Shown: piece by piece, positions 6,163-61,160 of the stretch
Position numbering within the stretch: the first letter of the stretch is position 1
How the letters are laid out: the number at the start of each line of letters is the position of its first letter
DNA from: a virus
Taxonomy: Duplodnaviria > Heunggongvirae > Uroviricota > Caudoviricetes
Length of the DNA stretch: 64,000 nt
Strand: one strand, 5' to 3'
Virus record (IMG/VR): IMGVR_UViG_3300015177_000008
Location: 47,519-111,518 of that record
The notes under the pieces: generated by a model
What the model saw: the letters and a program-made list of their open reading frames with translations, nothing else
What the model was told of the DNA's origin: nothing
Database searches by the model: none
Translations under genes and position numbers: made by a program

Positions 6163-6732
6163 TCAATTAGAGCTTTGAAAGGCTTTGTGTGGCTGTGTTG
6201 CGAGGTTATGTCGATGGCTTAACTCACGCATCATGTCTTCAAGGCGACTCTTTGTGTCGTCGAGCTGGTCGGCCATTGCTCCCAAAAGCTGACGAACGGC
6301 CATTGGATCGTCACTGTTTAGTGACGGCATTTTATAACCCGCCTTAGAAGACATCAGATTGAATGCAGACATCAACATTGTTAGAGAAAACTTAAGTCCG
6401 GCAATTTCACGATCTTTGCTGGCAATAATCGTCTCACTTTTGTTACCGTCATGAGTTCCTTGAGTCTCGCTCACCATATCCAAAGTCGCTTGCAACTTAT
6501 CAGCTCTCTCTTTTTCAGCAAGGTAATGAACGCCGAAATGATGTGCTAAAGCTACAACCTGAGTTGGTTCTTCAAAGGTGGAATTAAAATTAAGTACTGT
6601 AAACAGTCTCTCAAATATGGAAACGTCTTCTGTTCCCCGAACAATGCCTAACATTTTGACAAGTTCATTAGCATCCATTTCTTCGAATAGGGCGTTTTGT
6701 TCATCAGCTATTGCTTTGCATTTCTCGCACAT
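6163..6732 (-). CDS. Hypothetical protein (first gene with backbone-type 5' signals)
   Basis: 189 aa ORF; start in the conserved context AAGGAAAACACATG and preceded by a class-1 palindrome. Confidence 0.5.
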   Translation of the reverse strand: MCEKCKAIADEQNALFEEMDANELVKMLGIVRGTEDVSIFERLFTVLNFNSTFEEPTQVVALAHHFGVHYLAEKERADKLQATLDMVSETQGTHDGNKSETIIASKDREIAGLKFSLTMLMSAFNLMSSKAGYKMPSLNSDDPMAVRQLLGAMADQLDDTKSRLEDMMRELSHRHNLATQPHKAFQSSN

Positions 6733-6750
6733 GTGTTTTCCTTAATGCTT

Positions 6751-6764
6751 AAACAAGTTGTTTT
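6751..6764. promoter_or_regulatory. Class-1 palindrome AAACAA-N-TTGTTT (putative operator)
   Basis: aaacaagttgtttt, about 20 nt upstream of the 6163..6732 start on the minus strand. Confidence 0.45.
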
Positions 6765-6871
6765 CTTATGTGCTTTATTGTGATGTGGCATATAAGGGGA
6801 GCAAGCTAAACGTAAAGGTGCAAACTCTCTATTTTGGTCAACGAAACACAAGGGCCATTTGGCCCTTGTCA

Positions 6872-7030
6872 TTAACACGTTGCTTTACGGACTAGCGGAT
6901 AGGCGAAGTAGATCGCCAAACCAATGAGGACGCCATCAGAAATGACAGACATCATCTTTCCCGTGAAATCAACCAACACCGCCATCACCAGAAGAGCAAT
7001 GACGGTCACAAGCCGGAATCTCTCAAGCAT
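6872..7030 (-). CDS. Small membrane protein (52 aa)
   Basis: ATG overlaps the stop of the upstream gene (TAATG); hydrophobic MLERFRLVTVIALLVMAVLV...; below the track size cut-off. Confidence 0.3.
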   Translation of the reverse strand: MLERFRLVTVIALLVMAVLVDFTGKMMSVISDGVLIGLAIYFAYPLVRKATC

Positions 7031-7455
7031 TAGAGATAAGCATCCAGTGACAACTGAAGCGCCTGGGCGATCTTTTTCAGCGCCTGCTCTTCTTGTTCAC
7101 CAATGCCGTCCTGGTCGGCAATATCAAGGCACAGACACAGAACATCGACCGCCTCTGGAGTGCCCGCAATATCAGCCAGCTCACGCATAGCCTGTGCATT
7201 AGCGGAACGAGGGGACGCTTCGTAACGAGCACGGATATTGGCGCTCATTTGGGCAATTTCACCAGCAAACGGAGAAAACGCAGGCAGAGCTGCAATTGTT
7301 TTCTCAAGAATGGCAATTTCTTTTGCGTCACATGTGCCGTCGGCATAGGAGATCATGTACGCGCCCCACACGGTGGCCTCAACCGCATCACGGTTCTCCA
7401 TTTTTTTGACTTCAATAACAGCTTTACGAGTTTTCTTTTTGAAGAAACCTAACAT
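7030..7455 (-). CDS. Hypothetical protein
   Basis: 141 aa ORF; start context GGAAAACACATG; class-1 palindrome upstream. Confidence 0.5.
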   Translation of the reverse strand: MLGFFKKKTRKAVIEVKKMENRDAVEATVWGAYMISYADGTCDAKEIAILEKTIAALPAFSPFAGEIAQMSANIRARYEASPRSANAQAMRELADIAGTPEAVDVLCLCLDIADQDGIGEQEEQALKKIAQALQLSLDAYL

Positions 7456-7478
7456 GTGTTTTCCTTTTATTATTTGTC

Positions 7479-7493
7479 AAAACAAGTTGTTTT
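7479..7493. promoter_or_regulatory. Class-1 palindrome (putative operator)
   Basis: aaaacaagttgtttt upstream of the 7030..7455 start. Confidence 0.45.
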
Positions 7494-7548
7494 CTAGTTT
7501 CATATATTGCTTGCGCAAAGATGGTCAATGCATATGCACTAACAACCG

Positions 7549-7737
7549 TCAGAAATAACCAAGTACCGAACCGACTGGAAAAATAAAAATCCCAACTACA
7601 CGAGCCAAGGTCATGCCAGCCTGAAACTGGAGATCGCCAGAGCAAACAAGTTTTATAATGTTCGATACCCAACCGGCGGCCATGAGGGCCAGAATTGCCA
7701 GCCAAATTTTTCCAAAGTGATTTGAAAACCAGTTCAT
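7549..7737 (-). CDS. Small membrane protein (62 aa)
   Basis: Hydrophobic ORF; start overlaps the stop of 7734..7985 by 4 nt. Confidence 0.4.
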   Translation of the reverse strand: MNWFSNHFGKIWLAILALMAAGWVSNIIKLVCSGDLQFQAGMTLARVVGIFIFPVGSVLGYF

Positions 7738-7985
7738 ACAACCGCCTTAGTCACAGCATGATCCTGAGTAACTGGATGAACTTGAGGTATCGCATCCACC
7801 GCCATCCCATCCAGAGTGACAGGACGCTCCACTGGAGTGGTGGTAATTGTCGTCGACGAAGGTGTGGTGATGGATGAATCCGGCATCAAAAGGCTCTGAC
7901 CGGCTGGAACGGCTACCGTCGCCAGTGAAACTATAATGAGAACGTAGGCCATTGGTTTCAGCCTCTTTCTTTGAAAATTTTCCAT
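7734..7985 (-). CDS. Small secreted/membrane protein with Thr/Pro-rich tail (putative)
   Basis: N-terminal hydrophobic segment MAYVLIIVSLATVAVPAG; 4-nt overlap coupling to the next gene; lies entirely inside 7747..8241 in another frame. Confidence 0.35.
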   Translation of the reverse strand: MENFQRKRLKPMAYVLIIVSLATVAVPAGQSLLMPDSSITTPSSTTITTTPVERPVTLDGMAVDAIPQVHPVTQDHAVTKAVV

Positions 7986-8241
7986 CCGAACGGTCCTTGT
8001 TGTTTTTCTCCTTCACTAAAGGCCGTGCATTTTTCGCTTCACATGAAGAACTGGAGGTTACAATCGCCCCCACGTTCGCAACAACTGACGCTTGCTTATC
8101 TAAACGTGCCTTCAGCACCAGAACGGTAGTTTCCAATTCATCAAGACGTGACAGAAGGCGACCGCTAAATAATTCGGCCAAAATTTGACGTAAAGAACGA
8201 GGGCGTTTAGTTGCAGGAGTTAAAAAAAATTGACGTGCCAT
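7747..8241 (-). CDS. Hypothetical protein (C-terminal half possibly out of frame)
   Basis: N-terminal 85 aa look protein-like (coiled-coil); C-terminal part is low-complexity and overlaps 7734..7985. Confidence 0.35.
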   Translation of the reverse strand: MARQFFLTPATKRPRSLRQILAELFSGRLLSRLDELETTVLVLKARLDKQASVVANVGAIVTSSSSCEAKNARPLVKEKNNKDRSDGKFSKKEAETNGLRSHYSFTGDGSRSSRSEPFDAGFIHHHTFVDDNYHHSSGASCHSGWDGGGCDTSSSSSYSGSCCD

Positions 8242-8370
8242 GTGGACTCCATCCAGTGTCAGAAAGAGTTGCGGCTGGCGATTGCCAGCCGCCTTTCTCG
8301 TTCCATCCTGGAACTGTGTCTTACCGACACATTGTCATCCTGACGCCGATAAGATACATGATTTAACATA

Positions 8371-8390
8371 ATAGGTAAACACTTACTTAC
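8371..8390. promoter_or_regulatory. Class-2 AT-rich palindrome (ATARGTA...TACYTAT family)
   Basis: ataggtaaacacttacttac, overlapping the rnhA stop codon. Confidence 0.3.
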
Positions 8391-8980
8391 TGATTATTGT
8401 AAACAAAACCAATATCTTTCTTGTGAGGCGTATCTGCTGCGGAAAAAGCTGCGATCTTCGCCAGTCGATCACAGATTTCATTTTCACGATGCCCGGCGTG
8501 GCCTTTAACCCACTTCCAGCGAACATTATGTCGACTGGCAGCCTCATCCAGACGCTTCCACAGATCAACATTCTTTACTGGTTTTTTATCAGAAGTCATC
8601 CATCCATTACGTTTCCACCATTTCATCCACTGTGTCATGCCGTTTTTCAGATACTGGCTATCAGAGTGCAAAATAACGTTGCATGGATATTTCAAACGCT
8701 CCAGCCCGATAAGTGCCCCCATCATCTCCATGCGGTTATTGGTGGTGCTATGAAAACCATCTGAGAACTCGCGTTCCTCTCCACGATACTGGAGAACGAT
8801 ACCGTAACCGCCTGGGCCACCCGGATTTTTAAGGCAAGAGCCATCACTGAAGATTTTCACGGTTTTAAGCTGGGGATTGAACTCTACGACAGGCGTTGTG
8901 GGATTGGTGCGGGGAGAATTTTTGTTTTTGGCTTTTTTGCGAGTTTTTTCTTGCGATCGGGCTGGTGTCTTCGTCGTCAT
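8387..8980 (-). CDS. rnhA: Ribonuclease H
   Basis: ATG at 8980 with AGGAG upstream; RNase HI motifs ([32 protein letters not shown]). Track ORF extends upstream to 9034. Confidence 0.8.
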
Positions 8981-9039
8981 ATAAACTCCTGAATCAAGCG
9001 CCGCGCCGATTTTTTTCCTCGCGCGTGCGCACACGCGTG

Positions 9040-9958: not shown

Positions 9959-10488
9959 CTAATTACAGACGCCAGAACAAACTAAGCAGCCTTCTTTGAT
10001 GGTCTTTTTTTTTCTGACCACATTCGCAGGATCATACCCTCCCAGACTTTTCATGACGTCCAAAGGGATCTTGCTTATAGAGTGCCCAGCGTCCTGACAG
10101 AATCCTCGAAAAACAACGAGCATACTGCCACCGGGGTTGATGTTTACTTCTACCTGACCCAGATTGACGTCAGGCTCGACAAACGCTACGCGGCCACCAG
10201 ACAGAATAATCGTCTCATTCGCACACTCTGTTGCACGCTCATACCACTTTGTATCTAGGGATTGAGGAAGGCAATTGTACCTGGCTGTCCCCATTCAGAT
10301 TTCAAAGCATCACGCTCAACGCCTATGAAATTAGGCAGCTTTGCATTGTCCTTGTTGCAGGCAACGTCAACATCAAATGTCACTCCAAGATAACGTTGAA
10401 TGGCAGAAAACAGCCAGTCAGGTGTTCTCCAGAGGTCACGAAGAGAGTTGTCGCGCTTTCGCTGTTTGATTTTTTCGGCTGCAATCAT
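9959..10488 (-). pseudogene. Phage-type DNA N6-adenine methyltransferase (Dam family), disrupted
   Basis: Two ORFs in different frames: 10255..10488 ends ...GTIAFLNP-stop where NPPY/F is expected; 9959..10294 carries the downstream LPxxLDTKWY block. Apparent internal deletion plus frameshift. Confidence 0.5.
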
Positions 10489-11639: not shown

Positions 11640-12188
11640 TTACACAATTTCAGAGGGTAATTTAAAAAATCCGTACTTATTACGTGCCTTAAAGAAGCAT
11701 TGCATCATTAAGTTTGTGTCATATAAGGCACTATGTGCTTTGGCATGATCGTATATAAAGCCAAGAGAGAAGGCCAACTCTTCAAGGCGGGGACGTTTAC
11801 CGTCTTCTGTGGCCCACAGGGAAAATAGAGTGTCAATCAATGGGATGTCTGGAAGCGAAAAACCGTAACTTTTCAGCTCATGCCTAATAAACGGAATATC
11901 GAACGCTTCGCCGTTGTGGGCTATCCAAATATCGGAAGAAGAGAGATACGAAGCGACAGATGAAGCGTGATCGGCTAGTAACGGCTCGGCGGCTAAATCT
12001 TCAAGACTGATGCCGTGTACCGCTTGCGCTTTCGGATCGATACTGCGACGCGGGTTGAACCGCATTACAAAACTATCAACCATTGTCTGTGTCTCAATTT
12101 CGTACTTCACCATTGCGATTTCAATGATTTTATGGCCTGAGAGGAAATCAAGACCTGTTGATTCGATGTCCACCCCTGTAGCAATCAC
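11640..12188 (-). CDS. DnaQ-like 3'-5' exonuclease (DEDDh)
   Basis: Exo motifs VDIESTGL, HNGEAFDIPF, HSALYDTNL. Confidence 0.7.
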   Translation of the reverse strand: MIATGVDIESTGLDFLSGHKIIEIAMVKYEIETQTMVDSFVMRFNPRRSIDPKAQAVHGISLEDLAAEPLLADHASSVASYLSSSDIWIAHNGEAFDIPFIRHELKSYGFSLPDIPLIDTLFSLWATEDGKRPRLEELAFSLGFIYDHAKAHSALYDTNLMMQCFFKARNKYGFFKLPSEIV

Positions 12189-15000: not shown

Positions 15001-15001
15001 A

Positions 15002-16132: not shown

Positions 16133-16138
16133 TTATTC
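16120..16138. promoter_or_regulatory. Class-2 AT-rich palindrome
   Basis: gataagtaatcacttattc, overlapping the thyA 5' end. Confidence 0.35.
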
Positions 16139-49975: not shown

Positions 49976-49977
49976 AT

Positions 49978-51483: not shown

Positions 51484-51646
51484 CCTTAATCTCCTTCAGG
51501 GTGTTGGTTATTTCTACAATGCGATAAATACGACCGCGTCTTTCTATAACACCGCTTTTAATGTAGTCATTGATGCAACTGGACATCACCACAATACCTA
51601 TGAAAAAACCAACTGCTAAAAATGCAATCATCCAGCCGAGCATCAT
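51467..51646 (-). CDS. Small membrane protein (59 aa)
   Basis: MMLGWMIAFLAVGFFIGIVVM...; overlaps both neighbours. Confidence 0.3.
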   Translation of the reverse strand: MMLGWMIAFLAVGFFIGIVVMSSCINDYIKSGVIERRGRIYRIVEITNTLKEIKDDRIK

Positions 51647-53444: not shown

Positions 53445-53454
53445 AAATAATCTT

Positions 53455-53467
53455 GTACTTACCTATC
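53455..53467. promoter_or_regulatory. Class-2 AT-rich palindrome (partial)
   Basis: gtacttacctatc. Confidence 0.25.
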
Positions 53468-53499
53468 GTTATTTGCGTAAAAAACGACGCGCGGAGAGA

Positions 53500-54282: not shown

Positions 54283-54323
54283 ACCAACTCCTAGCTAACA
54301 GATGAAAGTATTCTTACAGAAAG

Positions 54324-54343
54324 ATAAGTAGTCATCTACTTAT
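54324..54343. promoter_or_regulatory. Class-2 AT-rich palindrome
   Basis: ataagtagtcatctacttat (8-bp arms). Confidence 0.35.
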
Positions 54344-54357
54344 TTTATCGGCGTTTG

Positions 54358-55539
54358 TTACGATAGAGCCTTAATGCCTAAAACCTTGCTTTGCAACTCC
54401 AACTGTTTGGTATACGGTTTTGCCCGATAATAGGCTTTGATAATTTGTTCTGGCGTTGCATCGCCGGGGTCGAGTCCTTCCTCGCCCAAACACGCTACTT
54501 TGACATTAAGACCAATACTGGTCAGTCGCCTGGCTGCGGCCATAGTGTTTCGTATAGCTTGCTTTTCACTATCCCACATCATGATCACATTACGTAATCC
54601 ACGCGCCTTGAGCGTCAGGAACGCGCCTAACTGATCTTCTGCATCCTGAGTGGTGTTACCAGATAGATGCATCCCGAACGTTCCTATCGGCTCCACGTAA
54701 TGACGTAATGTTTCTTCATCAAAAATAGCTCGTTTAACCCCCATAACATCGAACGCCCCCTCACAGACAACTACAGTCTGTTTGCCGACCGCATTATGGC
54801 CGTTGTAGAGAAATTTACCTGAAGCTGGAAGCTGCATAGGAAAGAGGTAGCGGCGTTCTGCTGTACCGGTAATGTCTCGTCCCTGAAATGTCTTCATTAC
54901 CCCATCCAGATCGTAAACCGGTATCAGTATTCGCATATCGAATATCTGCCCTTTGACCTGGTCTGTGTACGGATCGACGTATGCGTGCTTGCCTTCGACG
55001 CAGTAACGCAGATCAAAGTATTTGGCCAGATCCGGGGAGATATGGCGCTCCACCAGATAATCAGGAAGACGACCGTCAATGGGGAGTTCGTAATGTCGAG
55101 GGAGAGCTACTGGCCCTTCGAGTTCAACCTTGCTGGCCAGCACGACCTCTTCCTTCTTCGGCGCCCATCCTTGTGAGATCAGCGCGTTCTGCACATATTC
55201 CTCGAACTGTCGTCGTGATTTACCGCTGTAGTGCTTGAGGAAGACCAGCTTATTGAACTGAATCTCTTCGGGATGATCACCAGCAAAGCATTTGCCGACG
55301 CCACTGGTCAGATTGAAATATACCTTCCAGTTGGAGCTGCCACATACCGGACACTCCTTGATATTCACTTCACGACCGCGAGCACTCACGCCTCCACGTC
55401 GATAAACGATACCTTCAGTGTCCAACCATTGTTCAAAATCTAATTCGGTAATTAGCTCTTTCAGCTCGCTCACGATAATTCCACTTTTAATAGGCAATAT
55501 TGTGACCAACCTAAATGTTGATATAATATAAAGGTTCAT
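54358..55539 (-). CDS. DnaG-like DNA primase
   Basis: ATG at 55539 in context GAAAAACACATG; zinc-binding CPVCGSS...C..GDH and TOPRIM VVVCEGAFDVMG. Track ORF extends upstream into a hairpin. Confidence 0.75.
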   Translation of the reverse strand: MNLYIISTFRLVTILPIKSGIIVSELKELITELDFEQWLDTEGIVYRRGGVSARGREVNIKECPVCGSSNWKVYFNLTSGVGKCFAGDHPEEIQFNKLVFLKHYSGKSRRQFEEYVQNALISQGWAPKKEEVVLASKVELEGPVALPRHYELPIDGRLPDYLVERHISPDLAKYFDLRYCVEGKHAYVDPYTDQVKGQIFDMRILIPVYDLDGVMKTFQGRDITGTAERRYLFPMQLPASGKFLYNGHNAVGKQTVVVCEGAFDVMGVKRAIFDEETLRHYVEPIGTFGMHLSGNTTQDAEDQLGAFLTLKARGLRNVIMMWDSEKQAIRNTMAAARRLTSIGLNVKVACLGEEGLDPGDATPEQIIKAYYRAKPYTKQLELQSKVLGIKALS

Positions 55540-55591
55540 GTGTTTTTCTTTTGTGGTTTGGCAAAAGAAAAGTTGTTTCACCAATGAATCA

Positions 55592-55622
55592 AGCGTGGAG
55601 GTGTTCTCCACGCTTATTTTTT
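55592..55622 (+). terminator. Terminator-like hairpin oriented for the plus strand
   Basis: agcgtggag gtgtt ctccacgct then TATTTTTT; lies between the helicase stop and the primase start. Confidence 0.35.
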
Positions 55623-56961
55623 AGGTAACGTCTAAGATTCGCTCAATGAAGCGCATTTGTTCGAGGTTTTGTTTAACGCGAATGCTGATCCCTCCCTGCT
55701 GGTTACGAGAACCAGCAAAGTAGAGACGAGCCTCTCCTTTCGCTTCTTCTTCTTCGGTTTTGTTGATCGTTATTACCAGGTCAGCAATACGTACTTTTTC
55801 GATGTTGTCGGCGGCGTGCATCATTGTGGCAACTTCTGACGCGCCACCTTCACGGTTTGTCTGCGATGCCGTGATCCCAGCAACGTTATGCTTGTCATAA
55901 AGAGCACGTAAATCGGTGTAGATACTACGAATGTTAGCGCGATCATCACGAAGGTCATAACTGGCACGCATCAAATCTGCGTAGTCGACAACAACCATAT
56001 CAGGCACCATGCCATTGGCTTTCATGCTGTTAAGCATACGGTCCAGATCTGCCGGTGACATACTTCCTGACGGACGCTCAACCACCCACAAACTACCAAT
56101 CCCCTTCGTGGCTCCCAACTCTGCCAACTTACGATGAACCTCATCGCGCCGTTCCACCAGCTTGGACATTTCCGTCTCCGACAATCTTGCATCAAAACGG
56201 TCGGATAAAATGGTGGTGTGAACCTCCAGCGAGAGATACAGAACATTGTAGCCAGCAAGCGTAGCGTTTATGGAAAACTCACCCATTGCGGTCGATTTAC
56301 CGGATTTAGCGAACCCCATGAAGAGCACCATTTCACGCTTCGCCCAGCCTTTTTGGTACAGCAACCTATCGAGCAGAGGGAGTCCAGTTGTAATGCTGTT
56401 TGGCACATACTCCTCTGAAGCCTCATATTCACGCGCTTTCAATCGCTCACTTGCGGAGGTGTAGTAGTCATAGATTCCGGTCGCTTCGTTCGATCCAATC
56501 TGCTGAACCTTGGCCATTATTGACATCGCCCCCTGAAAGTCGCCTTTCTCTTTCAGTTCAGCAGCCTTAATCAGAGCATCATCAAACGCTACGCTTTTTG
56601 CGAAGGTTGATACCTGGTCAATCATGTACGAGGTATCGGACAATTTTTCTGCAAGGATGCGCTTAAACGCAGCAACAACATCGGCGAATAGTTCCTCACG
56701 GATAGTCTTATCGCGTTTCGCACGCTTAAGCATATCCAGAATCGCAGATGAAGAGGGCGCGCTCTTGTACATACGGTAATAGCCCGAAACCATATTAACC
56801 AATATGGCATTGGCCGCATTGGCAAATTGACTAGGCACAACAAGATCTCCCGCACGAGTAAGAAACTCGTGATCACGACAAAAATAGGCCGTCAATCTGT
56901 TCTGAAAATCTTCATCAAACTCTTCGGACAGCCCGCGTCCTGTATGGCAAAGTTCGGTCAT
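55621..56961 (-). CDS. DnaB-family replicative helicase
   Basis: Walker A GFAKSGKST and RecA-like C-terminal domain; start context GGAAAGCACATG; class-1 palindrome upstream. Confidence 0.85.
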   Translation of the reverse strand: MTELCHTGRGLSEEFDEDFQNRLTAYFCRDHEFLTRAGDLVVPSQFANAANAILVNMVSGYYRMYKSAPSSSAILDMLKRAKRDKTIREELFADVVAAFKRILAEKLSDTSYMIDQVSTFAKSVAFDDALIKAAELKEKGDFQGAMSIMAKVQQIGSNEATGIYDYYTSASERLKAREYEASEEYVPNSITTGLPLLDRLLYQKGWAKREMVLFMGFAKSGKSTAMGEFSINATLAGYNVLYLSLEVHTTILSDRFDARLSETEMSKLVERRDEVHRKLAELGATKGIGSLWVVERPSGSMSPADLDRMLNSMKANGMVPDMVVVDYADLMRASYDLRDDRANIRSIYTDLRALYDKHNVAGITASQTNREGGASEVATMMHAADNIEKVRIADLVITINKTEEEEAKGEARLYFAGSRNQQGGISIRVKQNLEQMRFIERILDVT

Positions 56962-56980
56962 GTGCTTTCCTTTATTTTTT

Positions 56981-56994
56981 AAACAAATTGTTTT
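56981..56994. promoter_or_regulatory. Class-1 palindrome (putative operator)
   Basis: aaacaaattgtttt about 20 nt upstream of the helicase start. Confidence 0.45.
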
Positions 56995-57004
56995 CTAGTG
57001 TTAG

Positions 57005-57745
57005 TTAATTAGATAGGGAATCAATAAACCGCCGTGCTTCTTCCAGTTCTTCTGGAAAGTGGGCGGAAATAAGGCGCTCTGGAACGATTTCCATTAGCCA
57101 GGTAGCGGAGAAAATTGCGCGTATGCGCTTGCTGCGGGGGATGGCGCGTAAACGCTCCAGAATCCACTCAAAATAGCTTTCCTGAATCGGGTTGAACTGC
57201 ATGTCTCCCATATGCTTAAAGCTAACCAGAGAGTCATCCAGACGGGTTGTTGCGCGTCTGGCTAATTTCTCTTCAAATATCTCAATCAGTTCTGGCTGCC
57301 ACAAATGCTGTGGGCGAGGCAGCTTGTCCCACAAACGTCGTGCAGCTGCGGAAAGCACGGTGGAGATAAAGTAGTCGTATGAGCAGCAATAGCGATCCGC
57401 AAACTGGCGTGCTTTCCATAGCGACGTTTTATTGGCAGTCGACAACTCCTGATAAGGCAGGCGTTTTAACCCGGTGGTGAACGGAGCTGTTTCAAAGTGT
57501 TCGCGACCGTGCGTCAGCATGATATTTGAGTACTGACGTTTGTATGCCTCCGTAAAAAGGCAGGTGGCCATGAGAGGATGCATGTCGCGGTAATCAAACC
57601 ACTTCGTCTCGAAGAGTTCAGCCTCGTCTTTACAGCGCGACAAACCAATGTTTTCAGCGACCCACTTGTCCATAACAGCGGTATTCCACTCTGTCATGAA
57701 GTCGTACTGGTCGTTGTCGATGGTATCGAAAAAGATTTGGCTCAT
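57005..57745 (-). CDS. Hypothetical protein
   Basis: ATG at 57745; track ORF starts at an upstream GTG. Confidence 0.45.
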   Translation of the reverse strand: MSQIFFDTIDNDQYDFMTEWNTAVMDKWVAENIGLSRCKDEAELFETKWFDYRDMHPLMATCLFTEAYKRQYSNIMLTHGREHFETAPFTTGLKRLPYQELSTANKTSLWKARQFADRYCCSYDYFISTVLSAAARRLWDKLPRPQHLWQPELIEIFEEKLARRATTRLDDSLVSFKHMGDMQFNPIQESYFEWILERLRAIPRSKRIRAIFSATWLMEIVPERLISAHFPEELEEARRFIDSLSN

Positions 57746-57756
57746 GTGGCTCACCT

Positions 57757-57861: not shown

Positions 57862-57916
57862 CCTGCTTCCGTATATATTTAATAAGTTACTTATTATTTA
57901 TATATACAGAAGCAGG
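57862..57916. repeat. 55-bp element with 16-bp terminal inverted repeats (copy 2 of 2)
   Basis: cctgcttccgtatata ... tatatacagaagcagg; core contains ataagttacttat. Confidence 0.5.
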
Positions 57917-58027: not shown

Positions 58028-58795
58028 ATGGACGATTTATCGGTATACGCGAGATCATTGGATAAGGCTAAATACTATGTTTATTGTCTCTATGATACAG
58101 AAGACAAGATGAAAAGACCGTTTTACATAGGAAAAGGCAAATCGACTCGTTGTCTCGATCACATCAAGTATCCCGATGACTCTCCCAAATCCATGCGGAT
58201 CAAAGAACTTTTGGCTAATAAAAAATTAGGCATAGATATTCTTCGTCATGGTATGGATGAAACCACAGCCAAACTTGTTGAGGCGACATGCATCGACCTT
58301 ATGGGGGTCGGAGAGCTTACGAATAAGGTACGAGGAAGTGGTTCCATGATGGGCAGAATATCACTGGACGCCTACCATCACTTAGTGCTGCAAGAGGAAA
58401 CTGAAATTGCTCCTGAGCACGCCGGTCTTGCCTTCCTGCTAAACAGCACCTACAAGTCAGGAATGTCCGCTCTGGCATTATATGAAGCTACGCGTGGCGT
58501 ATGGGCAAAGGTTCCAAGAGACGAGAATCTCAAATATGCCTACGCTACATATGGTGGGCTGATAATGGAAGTTTATCAGATTGAATGCTGGGTCAAAGCC
58601 GGTTCTCAGCAGTACTTTACAAGGGATATAGCTCTTGGCCCCGACACAAAACGTTATGAATTTGTTGGCAGAATAGCCGATGAGCATATTAGAAAACTGT
58701 ATGTAGGCAAATTAATCAAGAAGCCACCAAGCTACGGTAGCCCTTTTGTGAAGGTTGGGGTGGTTAGGACTGAACATAGTGTTAGTGCGGCATAA
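58028..58795 (+). CDS. GIY-YIG endonuclease (free-standing, homing-endonuclease-like)
   Basis: GIY-YIG-like N-terminus YYVYCLYD...PFYIGKGKSTRCLDH; isolated plus-strand gene with its own terminator. Confidence 0.55.
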   Translation: MDDLSVYARSLDKAKYYVYCLYDTEDKMKRPFYIGKGKSTRCLDHIKYPDDSPKSMRIKELLANKKLGIDILRHGMDETTAKLVEATCIDLMGVGELTNKVRGSGSMMGRISLDAYHHLVLQEETEIAPEHAGLAFLLNSTYKSGMSALALYEATRGVWAKVPRDENLKYAYATYGGLIMEVYQIECWVKAGSQQYFTRDIALGPDTKRYEFVGRIADEHIRKLYVGKLIKKPPSYGSPFVKVGVVRTEHSVSAA

Positions 58796-58811: not shown

Positions 58812-58849
58812 ATGCATTGGCGCAATATACGCGCCAATGCATGATTTTT
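58812..58849. terminator. Bidirectional rho-independent terminator
   Basis: atgcattggcgc aatata gcgccaatgcat then gaTTTTTaa, between convergent genes. Confidence 0.6.
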
Positions 58850-59207
58850 AACCTTTCTTCATCAACTCTCGTTTGATTTCATCGGTACGCATCGTGACAT
58901 CGGCAGCGGTGATCGCCTCATTCAATTTCACGATGTCCTCGATTTCCTGCGGTGACTTCTCTGCCAGATGGAAAATGGCTGCTCGAATCACGTCAGAACG
59001 AGTGAACTTCTCGAAGCGAGGGATGAACTTCATCATCTCCAGCAGTTCGAAGTATTCGTCCTCCAGTGACATTGTGCGGCTTTTAATTTTCTCTTTGCCA
59101 CGAGTCGGGCGTCCCTGTGGTCTGACTGGTTGGCGCAAAGGAGTTGTGTTCTTAGCCGGTGCATCAGGCTCTTTGCGCTTTGCTAGGTCACCCATTTTCA
59201 TGGACAT
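58848..59207 (-). CDS. Small partition protein, ParG-like (putative)
   Basis: 119 aa basic protein immediately downstream of parA; RHH assignment not checked against sequence. Confidence 0.45.
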   Translation of the reverse strand: MSMKMGDLAKRKEPDAPAKNTTPLRQPVRPQGRPTRGKEKIKSRTMSLEDEYFELLEMMKFIPRFEKFTRSDVIRAAIFHLAEKSPQEIEDIVKLNEAITAADVTMRTDEIKRELMKKG

Positions 59208-59875
59208 TATTCTTCTTCCTCCAGACTCAACAGATAATCTACAAATTCTTCAAACTCGGCTTCCGCCTTTTTGTCGCGCTCGCTACCGGTCATTTCAAAG
59301 ATAGAACGACCAGACTCTTCCGCATCATCATAGACGTTGCGGTTATATAGATTGACTGGCGCAGACTCGATTCCAAACGTCTCAACAATCTCTTTAGCCG
59401 CCAGAATGCGAGACACTTGTGATGGCAAAGCCGGGCACTGGTTCATGACCGCGCGGACCTTCACTTTATCGTTTACATTGCGAACATTGTCGATAATAGG
59501 ATCGATGTCACGTAAAGATTTCAAATCACGACGCTTAGGACGCAGCGGGATAATGATAACGTCAGCCATCAGCATCGCTTGTCGCTGAATTTCGGAGTCG
59601 AAGCCACCAGCATCTACCACTACAAACTCAGCTCTACCCTGAAGCGATTTTAGGTGCTTAATGATGTCATCCTGAACGTATGCAAAAGGAATCAGCTCAA
59701 GGTCTTCGTTCTGTCGACGGTCTTCACACCAGCTCGTTGTCGTGCGCTGAATATCTATATCGGTAATATAAACCTTCTTCTTCTTATTGACTTTCAGGCA
59801 AACGGCAATTTGCTGGGCAACGGTGGATTTGCCAGGCCCGCCCTTTGTGCCGCCAACCACAAAGATCTTGGTCAT
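59207..59875 (-). CDS. parA: ParA-family partition ATPase (small, type Ib-like)
   Basis: Deviant Walker A GGTKGGPGKST; class-1 palindrome in its upstream region. Confidence 0.8.
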   Translation of the reverse strand: MTKIFVVGGTKGGPGKSTVAQQIAVCLKVNKKKKVYITDIDIQRTTTSWCEDRRQNEDLELIPFAYVQDDIIKHLKSLQGRAEFVVVDAGGFDSEIQRQAMLMADVIIIPLRPKRRDLKSLRDIDPIIDNVRNVNDKVKVRAVMNQCPALPSQVSRILAAKEIVETFGIESAPVNLYNRNVYDDAEESGRSIFEMTGSERDKKAEAEFEEFVDYLLSLEEEE

Positions 59876-59910
59876 TGGAGAGTTCCCTTTGCGTATATAA
59901 TTATCGTCTG

Positions 59911-59924
59911 AAACAACTTGTTTT
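59911..59924. promoter_or_regulatory. Class-1 palindrome (putative operator) upstream of parA
   Basis: aaacaacttgtttt preceded by TATAAG. Confidence 0.45.
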
Positions 59925-60021
59925 CTTATATGTGATATAGCCTAAATGCCTACGGCTACGGTGTAAAGGTTAAATGGTAGGTTGTGGTTAACAATTGGCA
60001 ATCATTGCTTGTATTTGCCTG

Positions 60022-60073
60022 TTGAAAAAAGTAACAATGACCTCTATATTACAAGTACGGTGATATGCCGTAC
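60022..60073 (+). promoter_or_regulatory. Sigma70-like promoter plus palindromic operator of the toxin-antitoxin operon
   Basis: TTGAAA - 17 nt - TATATT followed by palindrome gtacgg tgatat gccgtac. Confidence 0.5.
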
Positions 60074-60193
60074 ACAATTTGATAATGCACACGTAATGGG
60101 CTATAGCCTTTTAAAGTAATTTTTGAGTCGAAAACTCAGTTTGAACAGAGGAGATTGATGGCCTTCCTACATCACGGCCATCAGGAGGAATAC

Positions 60194-60463
60194 ATGTCAG
60201 CACTAAAAAAGCAGCGCATCGATTTGAGATTAACCGATGACGATAAAAGCATCATCGAGGAAGCTGCCGCAATGTCTAACCAGAGCATTACTCAGTTTAT
60301 GGTTAGCAGTGCATCTGAACGTGCCGTGAAAGTTATAGAGCAACACCGTAGACTAGTTCTGAATGAAGAATCCTGGAATCTGGTTATGGACGCTATAAGC
60401 AATCCTCCGGCACCGAACGATAAGCTGAAACGAGCTGCTAATCGTCTGAAAAGCATGGAGTAG
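60194..60463 (+). CDS. DUF1778-type antitoxin (TacA-like)
   Basis: ATG at 60194 after AGGAGG; 89 aa MSALKKQRIDLRLTDDDKSIIEEAA...; directly upstream of a GNAT gene. Track ORF starts upstream. Confidence 0.65.
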   Translation: MSALKKQRIDLRLTDDDKSIIEEAAAMSNQSITQFMVSSASERAVKVIEQHRRLVLNEESWNLVMDAISNPPAPNDKLKRAANRLKSME

Positions 60464-60470
60464 TTTACTC

Positions 60471-60992
60471 GTGAGCAATACGACGATAGAGATTTTCTCT
60501 GGAGAGAAAGATTATGATCTAAACGGTTTTGATTGCGGCGAAGAGTCACTAAACGCCTTTTTAGCCAACCACTTAAAAAGGCAGCATGAGGGAAAAATTC
60601 TTCGTGCTTATGTGCTTTGCACTCAAGAAGAAAGGCCAAAAGTGTTAGGGTATTACACTTTGTCAGGTAGTTGTTTTGAAAAGGAGTCCTTACCTTCACG
60701 AAGCAAACAAAAGAAGGTTCCTTATCGGAATGTTCCAAGTGTTACTTTGGGTAGGCTGGCTTTGGACAAGTCCCTTCAAGGTCAAGGATTTGGCTCAATG
60801 CTTGTAACACATGCAATGCGCGTTGTGTACAATGCATCTCTTGCTGTAGGCATTCATGGACTTTTCGTTGAGGCGTTAAATGACAAAGCCAAGGCGTTTT
60901 ATAAAAGTTTAGGCTTTATCCAGCTGGTTGGTAACAACGAGCGTTCTTTGTTCTATCCTACAAAATCTATCGAAAAATTGTTCGAAGAATAA
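60471..60992 (+). CDS. GNAT-family acetyltransferase toxin (TacT-like)
   Basis: 173 aa with GNAT core (QGQGFGSMLVTHAM...); GTG start 8 nt after the antitoxin stop; hairpin gttcccctca tt tgaggggaac follows. Confidence 0.7.
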   Translation: MSNTTIEIFSGEKDYDLNGFDCGEESLNAFLANHLKRQHEGKILRAYVLCTQEERPKVLGYYTLSGSCFEKESLPSRSKQKKVPYRNVPSVTLGRLALDKSLQGQGFGSMLVTHAMRVVYNASLAVGIHGLFVEALNDKAKAFYKSLGFIQLVGNNERSLFYPTKSIEKLFEE

Positions 60993-61160
60993 TGTGTTCC
61001 CCTCATTTGAGGGGAACTTCGACATCACCAACCACAAACCCTCTCTCCCATCGTATTGTGAAAAAGGATTTGGCGTTCGGTTTCTTCAGTCATTACATCA
61101 TTATTGCTGATATAGATAGGCTCAGCTCCATCGCAGAACAATACGCTGGCGGTTTGTGGT

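What the first reader, a model, noticed from the sequence alone, without database searches (positions are those of the whole stretch)
6163..61020. Phage-plasmid-like mosaic: T4/T5-type replication and nucleotide-metabolism backbone carrying a plasmid replicon, partition and addiction modules
One element combines a long minus-strand array of phage-type genes (nrdAB, thyA, folA, RNase H, SbcCD, RecA, FEN, DnaE, CobS/CobT-like, ligase, primase, DnaB helicase, three tRNAs, homing endonucleases) with an iteron-flanked RepA, a ParA operon, a DUF1778/GNAT toxin-antitoxin pair and a tyrosine recombinase. That is the signature of an extrachromosomal prophage (phage-plasmid). From memory the gene content resembles the SSU5/pHCM2-type group, but I could not verify this.
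Basis: partly seen in the sequence, partly recalled or inferred. Interest (0 to 1): 0.7.

Follow-up and report, generated by a model that had tools for sequence, protein, structure and literature searches.

The report
SSU5-type phage-plasmid of E. coli

Summary
The whole 64-kb window, not only 6163-61020, is collinear at 99.7-99.97% with the circular 108-kb E. coli plasmid p108_MLI108-3. About 150 other complete E. coli and Shigella plasmids match it at 95-99%. It is 97.7% identical to Escherichia phage Cyrano (pLF82), a phage-plasmid shown by experiment, and gene for gene syntenic with Salmonella phage SSU5 and with pHCM2 (about 78% nt). The RepFIB-type RepA is flanked by 5 + 12 iterons. ParA, TacA/TacT and a tyrosine recombinase are present, and the lysis and tail-fibre genes begin at the window's right end.

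Four corrections apply. The label 'T4/T5-type' fits only the accessory genes, because the replicase is a bacterial-type DnaE with DnaB and a Toprim primase. The GIY-YIG ORF is a PD-T4-3 defence gene, not a homing endonuclease. RepA most likely starts at 26623. The stated coordinates are an arbitrary subrange.

The class is already known and interest is low. Side observations that I could not find described:
- a replicon cassette swap with precise borders
- a LexA-like box in front of int, which converges on the putative repressor gene
- three families of dispersed conserved DNA motifs
- lambda-late-leader-type hairpin modules in the tRNA array

The parts
1..1537 (-). 5' part of an inverse-autotransporter (intimin/FdeC-like) adhesin gene. 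It is cargo and is cut by the window start.
   Evidence: Pfam IAT_beta, E 6.6e-110. The gene is annotated in NZ_CP117002. Only two plasmids in PLSDB carry window 1-3302.
2079..3056 (-). Cargo regulators: a MarR-family gene (2079-2567) and a PerC-family gene (2742-3056).
   Evidence: Pfam MarR, E 5e-11, and PerC, E 2e-14. Neither has an SSU5 homologue.
3419..5105 (-). DUF4942/N6-methyltransferase gene split into two ORFs (3419-4240 and 4107-5105). It is probably a frameshifted pseudogene, and it marks the start of the backbone shared with SSU5.
   Evidence: Pfam. The gene is intact at 561 aa in NZ_CP126951 and in SSU5_095. The alignment shows 2 gaps.
6163..9034 (-). Small backbone genes, including TerB (7030-7455) and RNase H (8387-9034).
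   Evidence: Pfam TerB and RNase_H. tblastn hits to SSU5.
9959..10294 (-). Truncated Dam methyltransferase remnant.
   Evidence: The Pfam Dam match covers only profile positions 94-162 of 169. NZ_CP126951 has an intact 197-aa gene. The two aligned pieces imply that about 77 bp is missing from the window.
11640..12188 (-). DnaQ-like 3'-5' exonuclease.
   Evidence: Pfam RNase_T, E 1e-22.
12185..12979 (-). Free-standing HNH homing endonuclease, an insertion relative to SSU5.
   Evidence: PHROG HNH endonuclease families, E 2e-79. No SSU5 hit, and the flanking genes are adjacent in SSU5.
13470..21428 (-). Nucleotide-metabolism array: P-loop kinase-like gene, DHFR, PNK-phosphatase-like gene, ThyA, MazG-like gene, NrdB, NrdA, and a 189-aa gene annotated RuvC in Cyrano.
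   Evidence: Pfam. Cyrano annotation. 80-90% aa identity to SSU5.
22171..25402 (-). SbcC-like (22171-24087) and SbcD-like (24317-25402) nuclease genes.
   Evidence: Pfam AAA_23/SMC_N/SbcC_Walker_B and Metallophos.
26380..26489 (+). Origin flank with a DnaA-box-like ATATCCACA and a GATC-rich stretch. This flank is conserved in Cyrano even though the replicon itself differs.
   Evidence: Read directly from the sequence. The homology border with Cyrano lies at 26489/26490.
26490..28279 (+). Replicon cassette: 5 iterons (26502-26602), repA (26623-27717, RepFIB/Rep_3 type) and 12 iterons (27718-28249).
   Evidence: In Cyrano the whole cassette is replaced by another RepA (52% aa identity) with different iterons.
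29908..30738 (-). SPFH/stomatin-like membrane protein.
   Evidence: Pfam Band_7, E 9e-30. 94% aa identity to SSU5_062.
31035..33374 (-). RecA-like recombinase interrupted in its P-loop (GPPSAGK|C...SHN|T) by a 422-aa LAGLIDADG intein (nt 31917-33182).
   Evidence: Pfam RecA, LAGLIDADG_3 and Intein_splicing. Translation and borders. The SSU5 and pHCM2 RecA proteins (358 aa) lack the intein.
33643..36225 (-). FEN/5'-3' exonuclease, T4 gp32-type SSB, and a 143-aa protein annotated UvsY in Cyrano.
   Evidence: Pfam 5_3_exonuc_N and gp32, E 2e-67. Cyrano annotation.
36729..37328 (+). 199-aa protein annotated as a regulator or antitoxin: PHROG 'excisionase and transcriptional regulator', HicB in Cyrano.
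   Evidence: phrog_2620, E 3e-105. Cyrano annotation.
37480..37898 (+). cspA-type thermoregulator leader and a cold-shock protein gene. This is an accessory feature absent from SSU5.
   Evidence: Rfam RF01766, 185.7 bits. cspG annotation. No SSU5 hit.
38177..45315 (-). DnaE (Pol III alpha), AAA_5 ATPase (CobS-like) and CobT/VWA protein.
   Evidence: Pfam. 93%, 81% and 60% aa identity to SSU5.
45879..46265 (+). 128-aa putative repressor. Its 3' end overlaps the 3' end of int, so the two genes converge.
   Evidence: phrog_8 transcriptional regulator, E 7e-12. Annotated 'putative repressor', and expressed in the lysogen, in Cyrano.
46260..47363 (-). Tyrosine recombinase (integrase family).
   Evidence: Pfam Phage_integrase, E 5e-10, and phrog_1, E 3e-46. 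99% aa identity to Cyrano Int. Absent from SSU5 and present in pHCM2.
47391..47408 (.). LexA-box-like ACTGT-N8-ACAGT next to a putative int promoter (TTGATC-N18-TAATAT on the minus strand).
   Evidence: It is the only such site in the window, against 0.04 expected. It is conserved upstream of int in Cyrano and pHCM2.
47462..47494 (.). Perfect 13-7-13 palindrome AATGATTCCATAC-ATAGTAG-GTATGGAATCATT between int and grx.
   Evidence: The arms are identical in pHCM2 but the spacer differs.
47574..49256 (.). Glutaredoxin gene (47574-47897, -) and a 420-aa ORF of unknown function (47994-49256, +) in a variable slot.
   Evidence: Pfam Glutaredoxin. phrog_18168, function unknown. Cyrano carries other genes in this slot.
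49449..50052 (-). tRNA array Asn-Thr-[364-nt structured spacer 49536-49899]-Ser, ended by a terminator at 49275-49294.
   Evidence: ARAGORN, Rfam, fold and terminator scan.
51643..57754 (-). Replication array: a 249-aa gene, DnaB-like helicase, Toprim primase, two genes of unknown function, and ATP-dependent ligase.
   Evidence: Pfam. 86-93% aa identity to SSU5.
57862..57916 (.). 55-bp AT-rich nested palindrome at the head of the replication array.
   Evidence: A second copy lies upstream of the terS-like gene in p108. Three copies occur in SSU5.
58028..58795 (+). PD-T4-3-type GIY-YIG anti-phage defence gene (accessory).
   Evidence: PADLOC PD-T4-3, E 1.3e-23. Pfam LEM-3_GIY-YIG. Absent from SSU5.
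58848..59875 (-). Partition operon: ParA (59207-59875, 222 aa) and a 119-aa partner (58848-59207), a possible ribbon-helix-helix centromere-binding protein.
   Evidence: Pfam and NCBIfam ParA. 91% and 93% aa identity to SSU5. The partner matches no family, and its AF2 model has pLDDT 67.
60155..60992 (+). TacA (DUF1778) antitoxin and TacT-type GNAT toxin.
   Evidence: Pfam TacA1, E 9e-26, and GNAT families. Annotated KacT in Cyrano and expressed in the lysogen.
61161..62455 (-). Lysis cassette: holin (62120-62455), endolysin (61414-62133) and spanins (about 61161-61412).
   Evidence: 94% aa identity to SSU5_026 and SSU5_027. Cyrano annotation.
62920..63915 (-). Tail-fibre-related genes, the start of the virion module.
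   Evidence: RefSeq 'tail fiber domain-containing protein'. Pfam Peptidase_S74.

Best explanation
The window is 64 kb of a circular phage-plasmid of about 108 kb. It belongs to the SSU5 supergroup (SSU5_pHCM2-like, the E. coli/Shigella lineage that includes pLF82/Cyrano).

In the lysogen the element is kept as a low-copy plasmid by four modules:
- a RepFIB-type (Rep_3) initiator that binds 15-bp iterons on both sides of its gene. The layout resembles the P1 and F replicons, with iterons at the origin next to a DnaA box and a GATC-rich stretch, and a second iteron array downstream for copy control.
- a ParA ATPase with a small partner protein for partition.
- a TacA/TacT toxin-antitoxin pair for post-segregational killing.
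- probably the tyrosine recombinase, acting on a lox-like 13-7-13 site to resolve multimers.

After induction the element should replicate with its own DnaE/DnaB/primase/ligase set. T4-like recombination and nucleotide-supply genes would support this (gp32, UvsY-like, RecA, FEN, RNase H, SbcCD, NrdAB, ThyA, DHFR). The DNA is then packaged into a siphovirus whose genes lie mostly beyond the window.

Shown here: the gene content, the iterons, the synteny, and near-identity to circular plasmids and to a phage-plasmid verified by experiment. Inferred: the role of each module, the multimer-resolution role of the recombinase, and SOS control through a LexA-like box in front of int.
For: - Collinear at 99.97% and 99.67% with circular plasmid NZ_CP117002.1, across its origin.
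- About 150 complete plasmids cover at least 80% of window 6000-30000 at 95-99%. 121 plasmids do so for 30001-55000. 119 E. coli genomes do so for 40000-64000.
- Phage records: Cyrano at 97.7% over 88-91% of the query; SSU5 at 77-80% over 57-68%.
- The remainder of the closest plasmid encodes terminase, portal, capsid, tape measure and tail proteins.
- Domain confirmation of all replication, maintenance and lysis genes.
- Iteron statistics.
- RepA and its iterons change together as one cassette between the window and Cyrano.
- RepA is of RepFIB type: 120 plasmids at 99% or more, and thousands of IncFIB plasmids at 47-50%.
- Literature: Cyrano has 5.5 copies per cell, makes virions and is induced by ciprofloxacin (PMC9928086). 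The SSU5 supergroup is defined in PMC7969092. Four of five SSU5-like phage-plasmids tested were induced by mitomycin C (PMC9600943).
Against: - The window holds only the lysis genes and one tail-fibre gene. The virion module of this particular replicon was not seen and is inferred from a near-identical plasmid.
- Two methyltransferase genes (Dam, DUF4942) are broken.
- Some SSU5-like elements are not inducible (E. coli 166F4 in PMC9600943; Klebsiella p2 in PMC8969562).
- No centromere repeats were identified for the ParA system.
- The recombinase site and the LexA control are untested.
Confidence: 0.93

Rival explanations
1. The element is a member of the same family that has decayed into a plain plasmid. 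It replicates and partitions but no longer yields infectious virions.
For: - The Dam remnant and the split DUF4942 methyltransferase show some gene decay.
- One E. coli SSU5-like phage-plasmid gave no virion DNA after mitomycin C (PMC9600943).
- A Klebsiella SSU5-like plasmid was reported to act as a plasmid rather than as a phage (abstract of PMC8969562).
- The window itself does not show the head and tail genes.
Against: - All replication, recombination and lysis genes in the window are intact long ORFs with full-length domain matches.
- The 99.7-99.97% identical plasmid has a complete set of structural genes.
- The 97.7% identical Cyrano makes virions.
Confidence: 0.2
2. The contig is a chimeric assembly that joins a plasmid replicon (RepA, ParA, toxin-antitoxin) to an unrelated lytic-phage fragment.
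For: GC content dips locally at 2-4 kb and 48-50 kb. The plasmid modules are small islands between phage genes.
Against: The same order is found in about 150 independent complete circular plasmids and in phage records. ParA and its partner are 91-93% identical to those of SSU5 and sit in the same position. The RepA position is conserved in SSU5, Cyrano and NZ_CP126951.
Confidence: 0.01
3. The element is a prophage integrated in the chromosome by its tyrosine recombinase, not an extrachromosomal element.
For: An integrase gene lies 2 kb from a tRNA cluster. The E. coli genome search gave many partial matches on chromosomes.
Against: - The listed best matches (the top 15 of the 119 near-full-length records) are records of 105-115 kb, which is plasmid size.
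- No att-like repeat of a tRNA 3' end flanks the int module.
- The window crosses the origin of a circular plasmid record without a break.
- The literature states that these groups have so far been found only outside the chromosome (PMC9600943).
Confidence: 0.02

Closest known systems
E. coli plasmid p108_MLI108-3 (NZ_CP117002.1) and about 150 related plasmids of 105-115 kb from E. coli and Shigella
   Same: Identical gene order over the whole window at 99.67-99.97% identity. This includes the rare adhesin/MarR/PerC cargo, the RepA allele, the RecA intein and both broken methyltransferase genes.
   Different: 124 substitutions or indels in 64 kb. Most of the other related plasmids lack window 1-3302 and differ in the variable slots.
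Escherichia phage Cyrano (pLF82, OV696614), a phage-plasmid verified by experiment
   Same: 97.7% nt identity over 88-91% of the query. ParA, its partner, TacAT, Int, the putative repressor and RecA with its intein are 98-100% identical in protein sequence. It has the same three tRNAs, the same 13-mer sites and the same LexA-like box.
   Different: - A different replicon cassette: RepA is 52% identical and the iterons read CTCTCTATAGTGGATA.
- No 364-nt spacer between tRNA-Thr and tRNA-Ser.
- Different accessory genes around grx (CYRAN_41 and CYRAN_43 in place of the 420-aa ORF).
- A different gene in the PD-T4-3 slot, and no cold-shock gene annotated.

Salmonella phage SSU5 (NC_018843) and Salmonella Typhi plasmid pHCM2 (NC_003385)
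   Same: Collinear backbone: window 3.3-62.5 kb corresponds to SSU5 84.0-27.5 kb. 62 of 92 ORFs have homologues, and the replication proteins are 80-94% identical. pHCM2 also has the regulator/int/grx module.
   Different: About 77-80% nt identity only. SSU5 lacks the int/regulator module, tRNA-Thr and tRNA-Ser, TacAT, PD-T4-3, the cold-shock gene, TerB, the HNH gene and the RecA intein. Its RepA is 52% identical.
Phage-plasmid P1 (an analogy for mechanism, not a relative of the backbone)
   Same: Both are low-copy plasmid prophages. Both have an initiator gene with iterons on both sides and DnaA-box and GATC elements at the origin, a tyrosine recombinase with a 13-bp-arm palindromic site, and an addiction module. 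They share a tRNA-Asn/tRNA-Thr block, and part of the structured spacer matches P1, P7 and D6 at 94-97% nt. The P1 replicon layout is from established knowledge.
   Different: P1 is a myovirus with an unrelated virion and replication gene set. P1 RepA is not of the Rep_3/RepFIB type seen here, its partition system is type Ia ParA/ParB, and its addiction module is Phd/Doc.

Membership tests
SSU5 supergroup of phage-plasmids (Pfeifer et al. 2021, PMC7969092) | A gene repertoire related to SSU5, with the conserved phage-type core in the same order | tested here: met
   62 of 92 ORFs have tblastn hits in SSU5, strictly collinear, and core proteins are 80-94% identical. The window aligns with pHCM2 over 25.6 kb at 78% nt in the same order.
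SSU5 supergroup of phage-plasmids (Pfeifer et al. 2021, PMC7969092) | Plasmid replication and partition functions on the same replicon as the phage genes | tested here: met
   Rep_3 RepA with iterons, and ParA, lie between phage genes. The same arrangement occurs in about 150 complete plasmids.
SSU5 supergroup of phage-plasmids (Pfeifer et al. 2021, PMC7969092) | Virion, packaging and lysis genes (siphovirus type) | tested here: inconclusive
   The window holds holin, endolysin, spanins and a tail-fibre gene. Terminase, portal, capsid and tape measure genes were seen only in the 99.7-99.97% identical plasmid, outside the window.
SSU5 supergroup of phage-plasmids (Pfeifer et al. 2021, PMC7969092) | Extrachromosomal circular replicon | tested here: inconclusive
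   The window runs across the origin of a circular plasmid record without a break. The source replicon itself is not available.
SSU5 supergroup of phage-plasmids (Pfeifer et al. 2021, PMC7969092) | Produces virions and lysogenises as a plasmid | not testable with these tools
   Shown only for relatives: Cyrano (PMC9928086) and four of five SSU5-like phage-plasmids (PMC9600943).
Iteron-type theta replicon with a Rep_3 (RepFIB-like) initiator | Initiator protein with a Rep_3 winged-helix domain | tested here: met
   Pfam Rep3_N, 37 bits against a cutoff of 22.4. tblastn hits annotated 'RepFIB replication protein A'.
Iteron-type theta replicon with a Rep_3 (RepFIB-like) initiator | Directly repeated iterons next to the initiator gene, specific to that initiator | tested here: met
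   17 iterons flank repA, against 1.5 matches expected in the whole window. Cyrano has a 52%-identical RepA with a different iteron sequence in the same place.
Iteron-type theta replicon with a Rep_3 (RepFIB-like) initiator | DnaA box and an AT-rich or GATC region at the origin | tested here: inconclusive
   ATATCCACA (8 of 9 positions of the DnaA-box consensus) and several GATC sites lie at 26389-26470, read by eye. No statistics or function test.
Type Ib ParA partition system (small ParA with a small centromere-binding protein) | Walker-type ParA without an N-terminal DNA-binding domain | tested here: met
   The protein is 222 aa. It matches NCBIfam ParA_partition at E 3e-33 (115 bits, below that model's equivalog cutoff) and Pfam AAA_31, CbiA and MipZ.
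Type Ib ParA partition system (small ParA with a small centromere-binding protein) | Downstream centromere-binding protein, typically ribbon-helix-helix | tested here: inconclusive
   The 119-aa gene overlaps the parA stop. It has no Pfam, NCBIfam or PDB match. The AF2 model has pLDDT 67, with a disordered basic N-terminus followed by helices. Cyrano annotates it as RelE/ParE.
Type Ib ParA partition system (small ParA with a small centromere-binding protein) | Centromere repeats | tested here: not met
   No repeat array was found near the operon. Only one copy of the dispersed 17-bp palindrome lies upstream of parA.
TacA/TacT (DUF1778/GNAT) type II toxin-antitoxin | A DUF1778 antitoxin gene directly followed by a GNAT acetyltransferase toxin gene | tested here: met
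   TacA1, E 9e-26. GNAT families, E 5e-8. The two genes are separated by 7 nt.
TacA/TacT (DUF1778/GNAT) type II toxin-antitoxin | Toxicity by acetylation of aminoacyl-tRNA, neutralised by the antitoxin | not testable with these tools
   Not tested. The pair is expressed in the Cyrano lysogen.
Tyrosine recombinase | Phage_integrase catalytic domain with the R...R...Y residues | tested here: inconclusive
   Pfam Phage_integrase, E 5e-10, and phrog_1, E 3e-46. Motifs ARRPDE, RDLRRT and NH...VYDRHDY are visible in the translation but were not aligned to a reference.
Intein (Hint domain with a LAGLIDADG homing endonuclease) | Cys/Ser at the N-terminus, His-Asn at the C-terminus followed by Cys/Ser/Thr, in a conserved host-protein motif, with intein-free alleles known | tested here: met
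   The junctions read GPPSAGK|C...SHN|T in the RecA P-loop. Pfam Intein_splicing and LAGLIDADG_3 match. SSU5 and pHCM2 have intein-free alleles.

The most novel reading that the evidence does not exclude
SSU5-type phage-plasmids may carry a regulatory layout that, as far as I could find, has not been described. It would tie plasmid maintenance to the lytic programme.

1. A 17-bp palindrome, GAAAACAA(C/G)TTGTTTT, sits at about the transcription start of at least seven operons (parA, dnaB, cobT, nrdB, terB and others, and the terS-like gene outside the window). It could be the operator of one global regulator, in the manner of KorB on plasmid RK2.

2. SOS induction may work through a LexA-like box on the int promoter. 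Transcription from that promoter runs head-on into the putative repressor gene.

3. The perfectly conserved 13-mer AATGATTCCATAC has four single copies and one 13-7-13 palindrome next to int. It could be a second operator set or the recombinase site.
Probability: 0.3. Interest if true: 0.45.

Novelty: already known. Interest (0 to 1): 0.15.

Why it matters
The finding itself adds nothing new. SSU5/pHCM2-type phage-plasmids are a described and surveyed group. [quoted passage not shown] Nearly identical sequences are already in public databases.

The value lies in the correct classification. Such contigs are often filed as 'plasmid' or 'phage' only, and they can move adhesins, regulators, defence genes and resistance genes both by infection and by plasmid inheritance.

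The side observations could give testable handles on how these elements choose between plasmid life and lysis, which has not been worked out for this group. They are the precise exchange of the replicon cassette, the LexA-like box before int, the dispersed palindromes, and the lambda-type hairpin modules in the tRNA array.

Tried and rejected
- att sites. I looked for direct repeats of a tRNA 3' end flanking the int module, as an integrated island would have. None was found.
- Promoters at the 13-mer sites. A sigma-70 consensus scan of 41-52 kb found no promoter there, and fewer promoter-like sites than in shuffles.
- Extra tRNAs in the 364-nt spacer. ARAGORN with relaxed thresholds gave none that was credible. 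Rfam at E up to 1 gave only the known tRNAs.
- Rfam on 12 related loci. No family covers the hairpin modules.
- integron attC idea for the hairpins. I set it aside because the core boxes do not fit the attC consensus. The variants are G-U type changes that suit RNA pairing, and no integron integrase is linked.
- Literature search for the hairpin sequence. Nothing relevant. The 1988 paper on RNase III sites in the lambda late leader is not in the library, and only its title was seen.
- The 119-aa ParA partner. No Pfam, NCBIfam or PDB sequence match. The single-sequence AF2 model was of low confidence, so I ran no fold search.
- The 128-aa regulator and Int against PDB sequences. No hits.
- Full LexA-box consensus with up to 3 mismatches. 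No match. Only the core ACTGT-N8-ACAGT is present.
- Centromere repeats around parA. None found.

Full report
**1. What is there**

The window holds a dense array of genes, mostly on the minus strand. In a greedy non-overlapping ORF set, 67 of 92 ORFs and 47.5 kb against 9.5 kb are on that strand. ARAGORN finds three tRNA genes, Ser(TGA), Thr(TGT) and Asn(GTT), at 49449-50052.

- RNase H, DHFR, thymidylate synthase, NrdB, NrdA, SbcC-like and SbcD-like nucleases, RecA and FEN.
- DnaE, an AAA_5 ATPase, CobT/VWA, a tyrosine recombinase, ATP-dependent ligase, a Toprim primase, DnaB and ParA.
- TacA (DUF1778) with a GNAT toxin, glutaredoxin, a T4 gp32-type SSB and an SPFH protein.
- A DnaQ-like exonuclease, a MazG-like pyrophosphohydrolase, TerB, MarR and PerC.

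**2. The plasmid replicon**

RepA carries a Rep3_N domain. The 15-mer TATGCTGTCAGCGGT occurs 5 times at 26502-26602, with 21-23 bp spacing, and 12 times at 27718-28249. Together these are 17 of the 20 matches in the window, against 1.5 expected, and no shuffle reached 20.

The ORF start at 26503 lies inside the first iteron. An in-frame ATG at 26623 follows an AAAGGTG ribosome-binding site and gives 364 aa. The closest plasmid record begins at this ATG. The SSU5 and Cyrano RepA proteins are 354 and 351 aa. I therefore take 26623 as the likelier start; this is an inference.

Upstream of the iterons lie a DnaA-box-like ATATCCACA and a GATC-rich stretch. The layout is that of the P1 and F iteron replicons, a comparison that rests on established knowledge.

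RepA is of the RepFIB type. 120 plasmids carry it at 99% identity or more. 332 plasmids, Klebsiella and Cronobacter among those sampled, carry it at 80-90%. Thousands of IncFIB plasmids carry relatives at 47-50%.

**3. Where it comes from**

The whole window aligns with the circular 108,353-bp E. coli plasmid p108_MLI108-3 (NZ_CP117002.1). Positions 1-26622 match at 99.97% and positions 26623-64000 at 99.67%, and the alignment crosses the record's origin.

About 150 complete plasmids from E. coli and Shigella cover at least 80% of 6000-30000 at 95-99%, and nearly all are typed non-mobilizable. 121 plasmids do so for 30001-55000, and 119 complete E. coli genomes do so for 40000-64000.

The rest of the closest plasmid encodes tail proteins, tape measure, major capsid, portal and large terminase.

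Among phage records the best match is Escherichia phage Cyrano, at 97.7% over 88-91% of the query. Salmonella phage SSU5 matches at 77-80% over 57-68%.

A tblastn comparison shows 62 of 92 window ORFs in SSU5 in strictly the same order. Window 3.3-62.5 kb corresponds to SSU5 84.0-27.5 kb, and core replication proteins are 80-94% identical. pHCM2 of Salmonella Typhi aligns over 25.6 kb at 78% with the same order, and it includes the regulator/integrase/glutaredoxin module.

The contig is not chimeric, and there is no sign of a chromosomal location.

**4. How it most likely works**

The literature defines SSU5-type elements as phage-plasmids (PMC7969092). For Cyrano (pLF82), 5.5 copies per cell, spontaneous virion production and 39-fold induction by ciprofloxacin were measured (PMC9928086). 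Four of five SSU5-like phage-plasmids tested were induced by mitomycin C, and one E. coli element was not (PMC9600943).

By inference from the anatomy:
- Plasmid maintenance uses RepA with its iterons, ParA with the 119-aa partner, TacA/TacT as an addiction module, and possibly the tyrosine recombinase for multimer resolution.
- Lytic growth uses the element's own DnaE, DnaB, primase and ligase, with a T4-like set of recombination and nucleotide-supply genes.
- Lysis uses the holin, endolysin and spanins at 61161-62455, which are 94% identical to those of SSU5.

The label 'T4/T5-type' fits the accessory genes: gp32, the genes Cyrano annotates as UvsY and Pnkp, NrdAB, Td, Frd, ligase and the SbcCD genes, which correspond to T4 gp46/47. 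It does not fit the replicase, which is of bacterial type.

**5. What is accessory**

These parts are absent from SSU5:
- window 1-3302, which holds an inverse-autotransporter adhesin (IAT_beta, E 7e-110), MarR and PerC. Only two plasmids in PLSDB carry this segment.
- TerB.
- a free-standing HNH endonuclease at 12185-12979.
- the 422-aa LAGLIDADG intein in the RecA P-loop.
- a cspA-type thermoregulator with its cold-shock gene.
- the block 45414-49976, which holds a small ORF, the putative repressor, int, glutaredoxin, a 420-aa ORF, tRNA-Ser and tRNA-Thr.
- a PD-T4-3-type GIY-YIG defence gene.
- TacAT.

Two methyltransferase genes are damaged. The Dam gene is a remnant, and the DUF4942 gene is split in two.

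**6. The replicon is an exchangeable cassette**

Between the window and Cyrano the flanks are 95-98% identical, and ParA, Int, TacAT and RecA are 99-100% identical in protein sequence. Window 26490-28279 is nevertheless replaced in Cyrano by a 2.1-kb segment. That segment has a RepA only 52% identical and iterons of a different sequence, CTCTCTATAGTGGATA.

The borders fall just outside the first and the last iteron. The DnaA-box and GATC flank is shared. This fits the published rule that plasmid genes vary while phage genes are conserved. It also suggests that the lineage switches incompatibility type.

**7. Regulatory signals noticed**

- LexA-like box. ACTGT-N8-ACAGT at 47391-47408 is the only such site in the window, against 0.04 expected. 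It lies next to a putative int promoter. It is conserved upstream of int in Cyrano and pHCM2. The int gene and the putative repressor gene converge and overlap by 6 nt. SOS-driven int transcription could therefore interfere with repressor expression; this is an inference.

- 13-mer AATGATTCCATAC. It occurs five times as exact copies: inside dnaE, as a perfect 13-7-13 palindrome between int and grx, upstream of tRNA-Asn, and at the start of a 50-aa ORF. All five sites are conserved in Cyrano and in pHCM2. In pHCM2 the palindrome arms are unchanged while the spacer differs. SSU5, which lacks int, keeps the three sites outside the int module. The motif may be an operator or a recombinase site; I could not decide which.

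- 17-bp palindrome GAAAACAA(C/G)TTGTTTT. It lies 15-50 nt upstream of the start codons of seven minus-strand genes, including parA, dnaB, cobT, nrdB and terB. There are 11 strand matches against 1.16 expected. It occupies equivalent positions in SSU5, Cyrano and pHCM2.

- 55-bp AT-rich palindrome. One copy heads the replication array at 57862-57916. A second copy sits upstream of the terS-like gene in the closest plasmid. One of the SSU5 copies straddles the ends of that linear record.

**8. The tRNA array**

The 364 nt between tRNA-Thr and tRNA-Ser are absent from Cyrano and SSU5. They fold well, with z = -3.4, and match no Rfam family.

They consist of two units. Each unit is a hairpin with a stem of about 19 bp, CACAAC-A-GGTAAGAGCATTG...CAGTGCTCTTACCGTTGTG, and a variable interior. 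Each hairpin is followed by a tail that ends in a small hairpin and then (C)ACCA or TTCA.

Pieces of this spacer occur at 94-100% identity in P1, P7 and D6, next to their tRNA-Asn/tRNA-Thr block. Other pieces occur at about 75% in unrelated siphoviruses.

An exact-arm scan found the hairpin in more than 120 viral contigs, with dozens of different interiors. Where a tRNA lies within 500 nt it is always on the same strand, in 16 of 16 cases.

The same hairpin is present in phage lambda at 44791-44853, between Q and S. From my own knowledge of the lambda map, not checked here, this lies just after the late terminator tR'. A 1988 paper reports RNase III processing sites in the lambda late leader. 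I saw only its title, as a reference in PMC7547250, and the coordinates are unverified. The likeliest reading is that these hairpins are RNase III-type processing modules that separate the units of a polycistronic tRNA or late transcript. This is an inference.

**9. Verdict**

The element is an ordinary member of a known and well-surveyed group. Novelty: already known. Interest is low for the finding itself. The side observations are leads, not results.

Noticed in passing
window 49536-49899 (minus strand): A 364-nt structured spacer lies between tRNA-Thr and tRNA-Ser. It consists of two units, each a hairpin with a conserved stem of about 19 bp and a variable interior, followed by a tail that resembles a tRNA 3' end. 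It matches no Rfam family and is unannotated in RefSeq. It is shared with P1, P7 and D6, and the same hairpin occurs in more than 120 viral contigs and in the phage lambda late leader (44791-44853). It is probably an RNase III-type processing module.
   Followed up: partly
window 41430-41442, 47462-47494, 50248-50260, 51260-51272: The exact 13-mer AATGATTCCATAC occurs five times. One occurrence is a perfect 13-7-13 palindrome between int and grx, and one lies inside dnaE. All five sites are conserved in Cyrano and pHCM2, which is about 78% identical overall. SSU5, which lacks int, keeps the three sites outside the int module. The function is unknown; it may be an operator or a recombinase site.
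   Followed up: partly
window 6749-6765, 7478-7494, 18394-18410, 29831-29847, 45331-45347, 56980-56996, 59910-59926: The 17-bp palindrome GAAAACAA(C/G)TTGTTTT lies 15-50 nt upstream of the start codons of seven minus-strand genes, including parA, dnaB, cobT, nrdB and terB. There are 11 strand matches against 1.2 expected. It occupies equivalent positions in SSU5, Cyrano and pHCM2, and also lies upstream of the terS-like gene. It may be the operator of a global regulator.
   Followed up: partly
window 57862-57916; partial copy 9935-9958; p108 61573-61627: A 55-bp AT-rich nested palindrome sits at the head of the replication array, and a second copy sits upstream of the terS-like gene. It is about 92% conserved in SSU5, where one copy straddles the ends of the linear genome record. 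It could be related to cos or pac, or be a promoter or operator.
   Followed up: partly
window 47391-47408 with int 46260-47363 (-) and regulator 45879-46265 (+): The only LexA-box-like site in the window (ACTGT-N8-ACAGT) abuts a putative int promoter. It is conserved in Cyrano and pHCM2. The int gene converges on the putative repressor gene and overlaps it by 6 nt, which suggests SOS-driven transcriptional interference.
   Followed up: partly
window 26490-28279 versus L008 (Cyrano) 35162-37242: The whole replicon (iterons, repA, iterons) is exchanged as one cassette between backbones that are otherwise 95-98% identical. RepA is 52% identical and the iteron sequence differs. The borders fall just outside the outermost iterons.
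   Followed up: yes
window 26503 versus 26623: The 404-aa RepA in RefSeq annotation of a sister plasmid starts inside the first iteron. An in-frame ATG at 26623 with a ribosome-binding site gives 364 aa, which agrees with the SSU5 and Cyrano RepA lengths.
   Followed up: partly
window 31917-33182 within recA 31035-33374 (-): A 422-aa LAGLIDADG intein is inserted in the RecA Walker-A loop (GPPSAGK|C...SHN|T). RefSeq names the whole gene a 'LAGLIDADG family homing endonuclease'. The SSU5 and pHCM2 alleles are intein-free, and some related E. coli plasmids list no LAGLIDADG-named gene under the match.
   Followed up: yes
window 12185-12979 (-): A free-standing HNH endonuclease gene is inserted between the 3'-5' exonuclease gene and its neighbour. 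It is absent at that junction in SSU5.
   Followed up: partly
window 58028-58795 (+): The GIY-YIG-like ORF that looks like a homing endonuclease matches the anti-phage defence protein PD-T4-3 (E 1.3e-23). It sits in a variable slot next to the partition operon.
   Followed up: partly
window 9959-10294 and 3419-5105 (-): Both DNA methyltransferase genes of the backbone are damaged. Dam is truncated, and the DUF4942/N6-methyltransferase gene is split by a frameshift. Both are intact in a sister plasmid (NZ_CP126951) and in SSU5.
   Followed up: partly
window 1-3302; p108 record 75207-83269: The rare cargo consists of an inverse-autotransporter (FdeC/intimin-like) adhesin, a MarR-family regulator and a PerC-family regulator. 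In the closest plasmid it lies next to copies of the housekeeping-type genes metG and apbC. Only two plasmids in PLSDB carry this segment.
   Followed up: partly
window 37480-37898 (+): A cspA-type RNA thermoregulator and a cold-shock protein gene sit on the strand opposite to the replication genes. They have no SSU5 homologue.
   Followed up: no
window 47512-49271 versus Cyrano L008 14448-15941: The accessory genes around glutaredoxin differ between near-identical elements. The window has a 420-aa ORF of unknown function. Cyrano has CYRAN_41 and the very highly expressed CYRAN_43. One border of the variable segment lies 18 bp from the 13-7-13 palindrome.
   Followed up: partly
SSU5 (L005-L007) versus window 45414-49976: Phage SSU5 lacks the block that holds the putative repressor and int, whereas pHCM2 and the E. 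coli elements have it. This may bear on whether SSU5 itself can lysogenise.
   Followed up: no
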